Source: Octopus vulgaris (Eukaryota). Taken from it: a stretch of 64,000 nt of DNA. The position numbers and the translations under genes were made by a program. The stretch covers positions 64,356,001 to 64,420,000 of the forward strand of contig OX597820.1 of the NCBI GenBank assembly GCA_951406725.2, given 5' to 3'. This document shows, one piece after another, positions 23,288-30,100 of this stretch (positions within the stretch are counted from its first letter, which is position 1; the number at the start of each line of letters is the position of its first letter). A model generated the notes under the pieces. The model did not search any database, was not told where the DNA came from, and saw only the letters and a list, made by a program, of their open reading frames with translations.

Positions 23288-23300
23288 AATAATAATAATA

Positions 23301-24115
23301 ACGGACAATTTCATAGGGATATTGAAGATAAGACAGACGGAGAAAAAATATGGCTGTGGATGACTAAAAGTGATTTAAAACGGGAAACGGAGGCGCTAAT
23401 CTATGCTGCCTAAGAGCAACTTCTGAGAACAAACTGCATAAAATACAGAATAGACAACAGATCAGAAGGTGATAAGTGCAGAATCTGTGGACAAAACGGT
23501 GAAACCATATGGCATATTACCAGACAATGTACGCCACTAGCGCAGAAGGAATATGAGACATCACGAAATTATAGCAAGGCTTGTCTACTGGACACTTTGC
23601 AACGAGTATGAACTTGACAGAGCAAAAATTTGGTACGACCCCAAGCCCGAAGGCATCATCGAAAATAATAATGCAAAGATCCTATGTAATTTTTTGGTTC
23701 AGTGCGACCATGAGATAGAGAATAGGGAGCCAGACATAGTCTTAATTGAGAAAGAAAACAACCTATGCTGCATCATAGATATAGCATGCCCAGCTGACAA
23801 CAAGGTATGCGATAAGGAAGAAAGAAAAGTCGATAGATATGACAGGTTAGCTTGGGAGGTTAAGCAGTTGTGGTCGATGAAAAAGGTGGTAGTAGTACCA
23901 ATAATTTTCGGAGCCCTGGGAACAGTGAGCAAGAATCTTGAGAAGTACATAGAACAAATGCAATAAAGGTGGAACACTTTCAGAAAACAGCACTGCTTGG
24001 AACCGTTCGAATACTCCGGATGGTTCTCGAAAAATAAGATGTGTTACCTTAGTTCACTGGTAGTGAACAGCTGACACCGTAGTACATCTCCAGCGTTAGA
24101 AGCTGTGCAAAGGCA
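23301..24115 (+). mobile_element. R4/Dong-like element A: 5'-truncated, decayed CCHC + RLE + 3' UTR
   Basis: GQFHRD..LKRETEALIYAA*EQ..CRICGQNGETIWHITRQC..EPDIVLIEK..IIDIACP..GALG..LGTVRILR. Internal stops and a frameshift. Ends in (TAA)n. Confidence 0.92.
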
Positions 24116-24222
24116 ATAAATAATAATAATAATAATAATAATAATAATAATAATAACAATAATAATAATAATAATAATAATAATAATAATAATAATAATA
24201 ATAATAAAAAAAAAAAAAAAAA
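24116..24222. repeat. (TAA)n tract followed by a poly(A) run at the 5' junction of element B
   Basis: Visible repeat. Confidence 0.95.
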
Positions 24223-27513: not shown

Positions 27514-29552
27514 AACTAATGATTAATAAAGCCGTAACTGAAGACAGCCACAGAAAGAAGAAAGGCCTCAGTATGGCCTGGATTGACTACAAAAAGGCGT
27601 TTGATAGCATCCCCCACACATGGATCCTCGAAACACTAGCCATTAACAAAGTAGCACCAACAATCATAAAATTCATAGAGCACTCTATGAATAAATGGCA
27701 AACAGTCCTACACCTCCAAACAAAAGAGGGACTCATGAAAACCAAAGACATCCCCATTAGAAGAGGAATATTCCAGGGAGACACGCTCTCTCCACTCCTT
27801 TTCTGCTTGGCACTGTCACCTCTATATGATATGCTAAATAGAACTGGATGCGGATATAAATGTTACGGCAAAACGATCAGCCACCTTTTATATATGGATG
27901 ACCTAAAACTATACGCTGGAAATGACAAACAGCTGGAAACACTATTAAAGACAGTTCATGGATTTACCAAAGAAATAGATATGAAATTTGGATTAGAAAA
28001 ATGCGCCAAAGTAACCATGAAAAGAGGAAAACTAGTTAAGAGTAACAACATCAAACTAGATAAAACCAATGAAATAAAAGAATTAGACCAAAGCCAAACT
28101 TACAAATACTTAGGAATCCATGAACTAGATAAGACACAACACACACAAATGAAAGAGAAAATAAAAAAAGAATATTATAGACGAGTTAGATCAATACTAA
28201 AAACAGAGCTCAATGCTAAAAACAAGATAATAGGTAGCAACACTTTAGCTGTCCCAGTTATAAGTTACAGCTACAATATCCTTAACTGGACACGAAATGA
28301 ACTGTCCAAAATAGATAGGAAAACAAGAAAAATACTGACAGGATCTAGGATGCATCACCCAAAATCTGACATAGAAAGACTATATATACAACGTATAGAA
28401 GGTGGTAGAGGCCTTATACAGCTGGAAAACTACTATAAAATAACCACCATAGGACTGCAAAAATACCTACTTCAGAAGGAAGGAAAACTGATCCAGATAG
28501 CAGCAAAACACGAGCAAAACAAAAAACTGTTCTCAGTATTTAAGGAAGCTGACAAATACAAACAAGAAATCATACCACCTAATAAACACGAAGAAGAAGA
28601 AGAAGATGATGAAGAAACAACAAAAGCTATAAAACAAATGAAATCCAAACTAAAAATAGAACAGCAACGAACCATGATAAAACGATGGCAAGAAAAGCCC
28701 CTTCATGGTAAATACTGGACTAAACTAAACGCAAAAGAAATAGACAAAGAAAAATTCCAGCAATGGTTGAGAAGCTCAGGACTCAAAGCAGAAGCAGAGG
28801 GATTTTTAATTGCAGCACAAGACCAAAGCCTCCCCATCAGAAATTACCAAAAACATGTAATGAAAAGAAATATTACAAGTAACTGCAGAATATGTGGAGA
28901 TGGACAAGAAACAATAAATCATATTATCTCTAGCTGCCCAGTCCTGGCTAAGAAGGAATATATTCACAGACATGACAGAGTTGGAACCTACATACATTGG
29001 AAGCTATGCCAACATTATGGAATAACAACAGAAAAAAGATGGTATAGGCACACACCGGAAAAGGTCACAGAAAACGAGAAAGCAACCATACTCTGGGATA
29101 TGCCGATACACAAAGATAAAGAAATTAAGGCCAACAGACCAGATATAGTTGTCAGAGATCATGAAGAAAAAAAATGCTTTCTAATTGATGTATCAATACC
29201 GACAGATGACAACGTGTCTCTAAAAGAAATGGAGAAACTCTCAAAATACAAAGACCTGGAAATAGAGGTAACTAGAATGTGGAATCTGAAAACAGAAACA
29301 ATTCCTATCATAGTAGGTGCATTAGGCATGATAAAAAAATATTCAGACAAATACATAACAAAAACACCAGGACTTACAAACACATATAACATACAGAAAA
29401 TTGCACTACTAGGCACTGCACACATCCTACGCAGAACACTTTCCATACAATAACCATCAGAGCATCACAACAAATCACAGCACATACCCAAGGCACACAG
29501 AGCTGCGCTCGGTAGTGAAGTGAAAGCACCCTATAAAAATAAAACTACTGAG
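27514..29552 (+). mobile_element. R4/Dong-like non-LTR retrotransposon D including 3' UTR
   Basis: Flanked by (TAA)n at 27488-27513 and 29553-29654. Confidence 0.93.
27519..29453 (+). CDS. R4/Dong-like element D ORF: partial RT, CCHC, RLE (5'-truncated)
   Basis: WIDYKKAFDS, GIFQGDTLSPLLF, YMDD, YKYLG, CRICGDGQETINHIISSC, RHD, RPDIVV..IDVSIP, KLSKYKDL. 644 codons uninterrupted. Confidence 0.95.
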   Translation: MINKAVTEDSHRKKKGLSMAWIDYKKAFDSIPHTWILETLAINKVAPTIIKFIEHSMNKWQTVLHLQTKEGLMKTKDIPIRRGIFQGDTLSPLLFCLALSPLYDMLNRTGCGYKCYGKTISHLLYMDDLKLYAGNDKQLETLLKTVHGFTKEIDMKFGLEKCAKVTMKRGKLVKSNNIKLDKTNEIKELDQSQTYKYLGIHELDKTQHTQMKEKIKKEYYRRVRSILKTELNAKNKIIGSNTLAVPVISYSYNILNWTRNELSKIDRKTRKILTGSRMHHPKSDIERLYIQRIEGGRGLIQLENYYKITTIGLQKYLLQKEGKLIQIAAKHEQNKKLFSVFKEADKYKQEIIPPNKHEEEEEDDEETTKAIKQMKSKLKIEQQRTMIKRWQEKPLHGKYWTKLNAKEIDKEKFQQWLRSSGLKAEAEGFLIAAQDQSLPIRNYQKHVMKRNITSNCRICGDGQETINHIISSCPVLAKKEYIHRHDRVGTYIHWKLCQHYGITTEKRWYRHTPEKVTENEKATILWDMPIHKDKEIKANRPDIVVRDHEEKKCFLIDVSIPTDDNVSLKEMEKLSKYKDLEIEVTRMWNLKTETIPIIVGALGMIKKYSDKYITKTPGLTNTYNIQKIALLGTAHILRRTLSIQ

Positions 29553-29654
29553 TAATAATAATAATAATAATAATAATAATAATAATAATAATAATAATAT
29601 AATAATAATAATAATAATAATAATAATAATAATAATAATAATAATAATAATAAT

Positions 29655-30100
29655 GGGTTTAAATTTGAATGCCAGAAACATAATTACGGCAATAATCTCG
29701 TGCACATTCGCCTTATTTCGGCATGTTGCTGGAATCCTGAAATGGAAAGAGGGGGAGCTAAAGGAGTTGGACAGTATGACAAGAAGCTCTCAACAATCCA
29801 TGGAACCCGTTGTGTATATGCAGCTACTTGTTGCCTATACATGAAGAGAACAAATAGAGGAAGTCAAGTGATAAGTGTGGAAAACTGCGTACGTATTGAA
29901 CTCAAGAGCTTTATGAGATACCTATACCAAAGTCAGGAAGCCTTGCTAACTTTAGTTAGAAATGAGGGAATATTAAAAGAAGAAATAAAATAAAAAACAA
30001 AGAAGTACAAAAAGGACATAAAGAAGCATTACGAAACAATGGACTATATAATCAGTTACATTGCAGTCATAACTGAAGTTGCTGGAAAACATAGGTGGGA
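29655..30100 (+). pseudogene. R4/Dong-like element E: old internal fragment (post-RT/thumb region)
   Basis: LNARNIITAI..AGILKWKEGELKELDSMTR and LYMKRTNRG..ISVENCV align by eye with LNSKN..AIN..W..EL..LDRKTR and LYLPRSSGGRG of B and D. Confidence 0.8.

What the first reader, a model, noticed from the sequence alone, without database searches (positions are those of the whole stretch)
23288..30100. Self-seeding head-to-tail array of five R4/Dong-like retrotransposon pieces, each spaced by (TAA)n
Seen: A (23301-24115), B (24223-26757), C (26909-27487), D (27514-29552) and E (29655-~30100) are all on +, all preceded by (TAA)n, and A-D end in (TAA)n. They look like about four distinct families of different ages: B and D have open ORFs, A and E are decayed. 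Established: Dong elements of the R4 clade target TAA repeats using an RLE endonuclease. Inference: each insertion leaves a TAA tail that is a new target, so different families chain into a growing array, analogous to telomeric retrotransposon arrays but at an interstitial microsatellite. This would also manufacture (TAA)n.
Basis: partly seen in the sequence, partly recalled or inferred. Interest (0 to 1): 0.75.

Follow-up and report, generated by a model that had tools for sequence, protein, structure and literature searches.

The report
Dong retrotransposon pile-up in TAA repeat
Five cut-off copies from four jumping-gene families sit one behind another, separated by TAA repeats; they likely landed one at a time because this group aims at TAA runs, and similar stacks are common in this genome, so the spot is mostly ordinary.

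Summary
The chain is real: five same-strand, 5'-truncated pieces of four Dong/R4-like families (A; B; C and D; E), each behind a TAA run. None is a complete element. B lacks about 500 N-terminal residues and E lacks its 3' end. Copies elsewhere are TAA-flanked (B 3' end 29 of 29, D 29 of 29). Neighbours joined only by microsatellite are same-strand in 56 of 58 pairs, and chains of four or more occur in 2 of 80 arbitrary 10-kb windows. TAA targeting by Dong is published, also for molluscs, and this scan noted a two-family stack in another genome (e1-9273424). 'Self-seeding' holds only weakly. Each insertion splits a run and leaves targets, but net TAA manufacture is not shown, and young copies land in the run in front of an earlier copy at least as often as in its tail. 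Two extras are less ordinary. Young copies almost always keep at least 39 bp of TAA upstream (60 of 61), while the downstream run is often short. A 556-bp non-coding repeat, absent from this window, behaves like a Dong passenger at roughly 40,000 copies. No read set bridged the array.

The parts
23086..23302 (+). (TAC)n tract grading into four TAA units: upstream edge of the chain
23303..24116 (+). Piece A: decayed 3' part (CCHC knuckle, endonuclease region, 3' UTR) of an older Dong-like family; stops and frameshifts; best 90.6% to other copies
24117..24222 (+). A-B spacer: about 30 TAA units, then an A run that merges with B's own AAAAAGAG (microhomology at the 5' junction)
24218..26757 (+). 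Piece B: 5'-truncated copy of a very young family (best 99.7% to other copies); open frame to 26604 with RT (YMDD), CCHC knuckle and PD..E endonuclease motif; lacks about 500 N-terminal aa; ends in a TAA-like, family-encoded tail
26758..26908 (+). B-C spacer, about 150 bp of TAA with interruptions
26909..27487 (+). Piece C: 3' 580 bp of the D family, one-base frameshift; closer to dispersed copies (99.5%) than to D (98.4%)
27488..27513 (+). C-D spacer, short (about 27 bp), with microhomology into D
27514..29552 (+). Piece D: 5'-truncated copy starting inside the RT; open frame of 645 aa to 29453; best 98.7% to other copies
29553..29654 (+). D-E spacer, about 34 TAA units
29655..30100 (+). Piece E: old internal fragment of a fourth family (76-78% to relatives), cut at both ends; the same fragment-to-flank join is seen in contigs of another sample and of two other organisms

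Best explanation
Five 5'-truncated copies from four Dong/R4-like retrotransposon families lie head to tail with TAA spacers, and they likely arrived one at a time by target-primed reverse transcription into the same TAA run. Shown: family identity, truncation, TAA flanks and one orientation, here and across the genome. Inferred mechanism: the family protein nicks the TTA strand inside a TAA run, which fixes orientation. It likely needs about 13 or more TAA units upstream of the nick. The RNA's own TAA-like 3' end would pair with the target and prime at slightly variable points, and copying often stops early and is joined through microhomology. Each event splits the run in two, and the upstream part stays long enough to be hit again. 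Likely order here: E first, then A, then D, C and B, each landing in the run between A and the previous arrival. The chain is a by-product with no sign of function, and none of the five can move by itself.
For: TAA-type run after the 3' end: B 29 of 29 plus 20 of 20 long copies (two loci are in both sets), D 29 of 29, A cluster 27 of 30; 169 of 178 endonuclease C-termini found in 224 loci (loci mostly chosen by these families). Run before the 5' junction, where visible: B 13 of 16 and 19 of 20, D 13 of 19. Neighbour orientation same/opposite within 1.3 kb: 10/0 (background), 17/1, 19/3, 24/1, 25/5; joined only by microsatellite 4/0, 13/0, 12/0, 8/1, 19/1. Background pieces cluster: 33 pieces in 20 of 80 windows, dispersion p 8e-11; chains of 4 and 5 in L153 and L167. 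C is nearer to dispersed copies than to D, and all spacers and truncation points differ, which fits serial insertion rather than duplication (criterion from PMC7367193, passages). Age ladder by best match: E 78%, A 90.6%, D 98.7%, C 99.5%, B 99.7%. Upstream run at least 39 bp in 60 of 61 young copies that have one (B 31 of 32, the 556-bp repeat 29 of 29); downstream run under 36 bp in 20 of 61 (Fisher p 4e-6). Graded B tails: 33, 9, 5, 1, 1 of 49. Dong targets TAA in insects, molluscs and cnidarians (PMC7998251, passages).
Against: No contig or read bridged any spacer, so the joins rest on the assembly. With microsatellite-only spacers the longest chain was 3 in the 80 background windows and 4 in the 107 family-centred loci (87 of these are only 3.3 kb), so five is at the top of what I saw. 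The D family shows no upstream/downstream asymmetry (2 vs 1 of 12 under 36 bp), and the paired test for B alone is not significant (p 0.16). Four of 36 B and 7 of 19 D copies had no upstream run by the measure. The order of D, C and B rests on differences under 1%. Which of two neighbours came first is not known copy by copy. No tree against named R4, Dong or Rex6 sequences could be built.
Confidence: 0.85

Rival explanations
1. Strong self-seeding: each insertion writes new TAA units at its 3' end, these tails are the main targets, and the elements are net makers of the genome's TAA repeats.
For: Every young copy has a 3' run of at least 12 bp, and the B RNA carries a TAA-like end. 37 of 88 background TAA arrays, holding 2987 of 5453 bp, touch a Dong piece or the 556-bp repeat, and these arrays are longer (median 75 vs 42 bp). 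An older Dong lies upstream of 9 of 36 B copies. Here B, C and D sit in what is also A's tail.
Against: Young 3' runs are often shorter than the apparent 39-bp floor (20 of 61), and young neighbours lie downstream of B more often than upstream. 51 of 88 arrays touch neither element type. Longer arrays may be chosen, not made. Tail, target duplication and old repeat cannot be told apart without empty sites.
Confidence: 0.3
2. The chain grew by local duplication or recombination between TAA runs (unequal exchange), not by separate insertions.
For: C repeats the end of D at 98.4%. Such events are shown for MoTeR arrays (PMC7367193, passages).
Against: C has closer relatives elsewhere (3 differences to L007, 9 to D) and a different tail start. 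Four families are present, and spacers and truncation points all differ.
Confidence: 0.06
3. Assembly mis-join of unrelated copies across TAA repeats.
For: No short-read contig bridges a spacer.
Against: The window has no N. Spacers carry unique interruptions, and junctions show microhomology. Both flanks have about the same depth in run X1 (56.8 and 53.6). Like chains recur genome-wide with one orientation in 56 of 58 joins, whereas mis-joins would not explain the age ladder.
Confidence: 0.05
4. Passive accumulation: elements insert widely and merely survive in a tolerant, repeat-rich spot.
For: The window is rich in simple repeats.
Against: Near-identical young copies are already TAA-flanked and co-oriented. 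There are no Dong pieces elsewhere in the 64 kb.
Confidence: 0.03

Closest known systems
Dong (Bombyx mori), DongAg, DongBg and Darwinula Dong1/Dong2, R4/Dong clade (PMC7998251, PMC3812793, PMC3774820, PMC1635306: passages)
   Same: One ORF with RT, CCHC knuckle and restriction-like endonuclease; no N-terminal zinc finger; TAA target, reported also for molluscs. The B family starts TAA-run then GCTCC, as does the B. mori Dong junction primer in PMC3774820.
   Different: Multi-family chains, an upstream-run floor and a non-coding partner did not appear in the passages read or in searches. No ribozyme was detected at the 5' end here. The original Dong paper (PMC309301) and PMC4400214 were not held; Kojima and Fujiwara 2004 was not looked up.
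Dong-R4 families of octopus repeat annotations (PMC13282606, parts 1-2 of 3 read; PMC8967140, passages)
   Same: Dong-R4 is abundant in coleoids; 5 recently active families with 1129 insertions are listed for O. vulgaris.
   Different: The text read gives no target, flank or chain analysis. Their supplements and repeat library were not seen and may already hold these families and the 556-bp repeat.
MoTeR1/MoTeR2 arrays of Magnaporthe telomeres (PMC7367193, passages)
   Same: Co-oriented, often truncated copies separated by tracts of the target repeat, with a shorter partner element in the same arrays.
   Different: They are telomeric, MoTeR2 shares both ends with MoTeR1, and the arrays also grow by break-induced copying. 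Here the site is interstitial, four old lineages mix, and the putative partner shares no detectable sequence.
TRAS/SART in silkworm TTAGG repeats (PMC4700185, passages); HeT-A/TART/TAHRE (search listing)
   Same: Several families interrupt one simple repeat.
   Different: They have two ORFs (an APE endonuclease, recalled), sit at telomeres and are tied to end maintenance. No host role is indicated here.

Membership tests
R4/Dong clade | Single ORF with RT and C-terminal CCHC knuckle plus restriction-like endonuclease (PD..D/E, K..Y) | tested here: met
   1293-aa ORF in full B copies; RVT_1 and weak zf-RVT; YMDD in B and D, PD and K..Y motifs in A, B, D; CX2CX8HX4C read directly
R4/Dong clade | No N-terminal zinc finger (unlike R2; for NeSL recalled) | tested here: met
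   no C2H2-like pattern in residues 1-560 of full B; no such Pfam hit
R4/Dong clade | Divergent Myb/SANT-like N-terminal domain | tested here: inconclusive
   Atlas best hit Myb_Rap1 at 0.86, a lead only; single-sequence model gave no PDB match at E<=0.001
R4/Dong clade | RT phylogeny groups with named R4, Dong, Rex6 | not testable with these tools
   no named reference sequences were returned; a Pediculus 'reverse transcriptase, putative' is 48% identical (P0114), and that species is in the R4/Dong set of PMC7998251, but the accession was not matched; best PDB sequence hits are R2 proteins
Dong lineage | Insertion into (TAA)n in one orientation | tested here: met
Dong lineage | HDV-like ribozyme at the 5' end | tested here: inconclusive
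   no Rfam hit and no hit with my loose descriptor; both tests are weak
Telomeric retrotransposon arrays (HeT-A/TART, TRAS/SART, MoTeR) | Position at a chromosome end in telomeric repeats | tested here: not met
   locus at 64.4 Mb of a 128.6-Mb contig; the repeat is TAA
Autonomous active element | Complete 5' end and ORF | tested here: not met
   all five pieces are 5'-truncated

The most novel reading that the evidence does not exclude
In this genome TAA microsatellites are a shared, polar landing pad run by at least nine Dong lineages. The protein needs about 13 TAA units upstream, so new copies stack in front of older ones. A 556-bp protein-free passenger with no detectable sequence shared with its helper rides the same machinery to about 40,000 copies. 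Together these elements touch about half of all TAA repeat sequence and may make much of it.
Probability: 0.4. Interest if true: 0.6.

Novelty: new member of a known kind. Interest (0 to 1): 0.33.

Why it matters
The locus is a clean example of what a known targeting habit produces at high copy number, and no new system. It matters modestly in three ways. Thousands of such chains record the relative ages of families. The upstream-run floor is a testable clue to how a microsatellite-targeting restriction-like endonuclease element picks its site, which is of interest because related R2 proteins are used for gene insertion (recalled). If confirmed, the 556-bp passenger would be a very abundant non-autonomous partner of a Dong element, which my searches did not find described.

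Tried and rejected
Reads: contigs of seven runs were laid, none bridged a spacer, and no empty allele was seen. An apparent 142-base overhang of an X2 contig lies downstream, not upstream, of E (minus-strand numbering; compare). Missing cover of the downstream flank in X15 and X4 proves nothing. Target-site duplications: shared interruptions on both sides of L121, L056, L103 and L113 were looked at by eye and are not decisive. A first idea that the repeat following many Dong tails lies on the other strand with an (ATT)n tail was wrong for the 556-bp repeat: it is same-strand. The piece at 22780-23085 is not part of the chain: no Dong-like coding match under the hit, relatives 77-80% and not TAC-flanked. 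E is not the A family. Ribozyme searches found nothing. The fold search of the N-terminal domain found nothing. One search gave inflated background counts through one contaminated query (56 short hits), so it was dropped and redone. Also dropped before counting: library peptides under 27% identity, RT-only hits under 45%, and, for TAA-array tallies, the satellite window L201. Scripts had wrong element ends and were redone.

Full report
What is there. The window lies at 64.36-64.42 Mb of a 128.6-Mb contig of a 2.8-Gb genome in 227 contigs and holds no N. Genome size, repeat content and earlier scan notes suggest an octopus-like animal; this is an inference. Between 23303 and 30100 lie five pieces on +, separated by TAA runs of about 92 bp plus an A run, 150, 27 and 102 bp. 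B (798 aa open) and D (645 aa open) hit RVT_1 and weakly zf-RVT and are 53.6% identical. C is the last 580 bp of the D family with a one-base frameshift. A is broken by stops and frameshifts. E is a weak but real fragment, 29 bits against a maximum of 25 in 200 codon shuffles, and its relatives at 76-78% carry Dong-like coding pieces in 9 of 9 loci. A tree of the C-terminal region (35 rows) puts A, B and D on three separate branches; E lacks that region and was not in it.

The families. B is very young: 36 of the 40 scored hits, this copy included, are identical over 375 bp. Long copies are about 4.6 kb with TAA on both sides, and four of 20 (L113, L116, L118, L119) keep the 1344-codon stop-to-stop frame, 1293 aa from the first Met. 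The window's B starts at base 2061 of 4594, so its open frame is a remnant. First-look candidates were 2544 for the B end, 4394 for A, 1121 for E and 100 for D (these are not copy numbers). The protein has YMDD, a CCHC knuckle, endonuclease motifs and no N-terminal zinc finger. A Myb-like N-terminal domain is only a lead. This matches the description of R4/Dong elements, whose target is (TAA)n in insects, molluscs and cnidarians (PMC7998251, passages).

Are copies elsewhere TAA-flanked and oriented? Yes. 3' runs: B 29 of 29 and 20 of 20 (two loci shared), D 29 of 29. 5' runs where the junction was in view: B 13 of 16 and 19 of 20, D 13 of 19. Of 178 endonuclease C-termini found in 224 loci, 169 are followed by a TAA-type run within 450 bp, in nine 3'-end clusters of three or more plus 11 singletons. 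To avoid selection I took 80 windows of 10 kb at round coordinates on 25 contigs. They hold 33 Dong-like pieces in 20 windows, 29.6 of 800 kb, strongly clustered (p 8e-11). 17 of 32 3' ends and 15 of 33 5' ends touch TAA on the sense strand and none on the other, against 1.3% of random 40-mers. Neighbours within 1.3 kb are same-strand in 95 of 105 pairs over five sets, and in 56 of 58 where only microsatellite lies between. Some same-strand pairs may be one split element. Chains of four and five with gaps up to 1.3 kb occur in 2 of 80 windows, which scales to about 7,000 windows (840 to 24,000). With microsatellite-only spacers the longest chains were 3 in the background and 4 in family-centred loci, so this five-piece chain is a good example near the top of the range.

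How the chain grew. C differs from D at 9 places but from a dispersed copy at 3, and all spacers and truncation points differ. In MoTeR arrays, identical spacers and truncations were taken to mark amplification rather than serial transposition (PMC7367193, passages); here the pattern is the opposite. Best matches give an age ladder E 78.4, A 90.6, D 98.7, C 99.5, B 99.7% (among the loci fetched). E with its downstream flank is in contigs of another sample and of two other organisms, so it is old. The 5' junctions of B and D show microhomology with the run. B tails form a graded series (33, 9, 5, 1, 1 of 49), which I read as an RNA with a TAA-like end priming at variable points.

Self-seeding. 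Old tails are used: an older Dong lies upstream of 9 of 36 B copies, and here B, C and D sit in A's tail. But the upstream run of young copies has a floor. It is at least 39 bp in 31 of 32 B copies that have one and in 29 of 29 copies of the 556-bp repeat, while 20 of those 61 downstream runs and 33 of 93 background arrays are under 36 bp. D shows no such asymmetry (n=12), and the paired test for B alone gives p 0.16. Young neighbours lie downstream of B in 18 of 47 and upstream in 5 of 36 (p 0.015). I infer that the run in front of a copy stays a target while a fresh tail is often too short. The 27-bp C-D spacer fits C landing in front of D. 37 of 88 background arrays touch one of these elements and hold 55% of the array length, enough to make chains by repeated hits. 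Whether insertion adds TAA cannot be told without empty sites, and none was found: contigs of seven runs broke at the repeats.

A lead outside the window. A 556-bp repeat without a useful ORF, Rfam match or box B has TAA on both sides in 29 of 29 close copies. It is same-strand to Dong neighbours in 61 of 63 cases and has copies cut at varied 5' points. It shows short tandem repeats of its 5' end in 6 of 52 starts, as B does in 2 of 8 and D in 1 of 2. Twelve hits in 800 kb scale to about 42,000. It shares no detectable sequence with Dong pieces, so dependence on Dong is inferred from behaviour only.

What is known. TAA targeting by Dong (PMC3812793, PMC1635306, PMC7998251; passages) and abundant, recently active Dong-R4 in octopus (PMC13282606, parts 1-2 of 3; PMC8967140, passages) are in print. 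Arrays of retrotransposons spaced by their target repeat are known at telomeres (PMC7367193, PMC4700185; passages). Nine paper searches showed no description of multi-family Dong chains or of a Dong passenger. The library lacks key papers, and no supplements were seen. The scan noted a two-family Dong stack in another genome (e1-9273424; unchecked).

Verdict. This is a real, common by-product of a known targeting habit: a new member of a known kind, interest 0.33. The upstream floor and the putative passenger are the parts worth following.

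Noticed in passing
L164:5756-6313 (+); L036; L226-L254; not in the window: 556-bp non-coding repeat, TAA on both sides in 29 of 29 close copies, same strand as Dong neighbours in 61 of 63, variable 5' truncation, about 42,000 copies by scaling: candidate non-autonomous passenger of Dong.
   Followed up: partly
L122, L118 (B family); L153 (D family); L241, L242, L245, L246 (556-bp repeat): The first 20-25 bases of full-length copies are sometimes repeated in tandem, up to about nine times, at the 5' junction in all three element types.
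   Followed up: partly
window 22780-23085: Old dispersed repeat (77-80% to relatives, 2929 first-look candidates) between two (TAC)n tracts; relatives continue into what looks by eye like a tRNA-type head on the minus strand (resemblance recalled). Not part of the chain.
   Followed up: partly
window 30083-30118: A 14-bp unit repeated 2.7 times sits exactly at the point where E is cut off.
   Followed up: no
L201 (whole 10 kb): About 369-bp tandem satellite with a short TAA run in every unit.
   Followed up: no
L115, around 3142-3474 and beyond the element's other end; L086: Rare opposite-strand joins where a TAA run turns into a TTA run; in L115 a B copy has inverted neighbours on both sides.
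   Followed up: no
L125:1507-1557, L134:9112-9159, L171:9848-9907 and other background loci: Other abundant short repeats also border TAA runs or carry one inside, so SINE-like repeats may supply first landing sites for chains.
   Followed up: no
L094/L097/L100 versus L096/L099/L101: Two B subfamilies differ by a 24-bp in-frame indel near the N-terminus.
   Followed up: no
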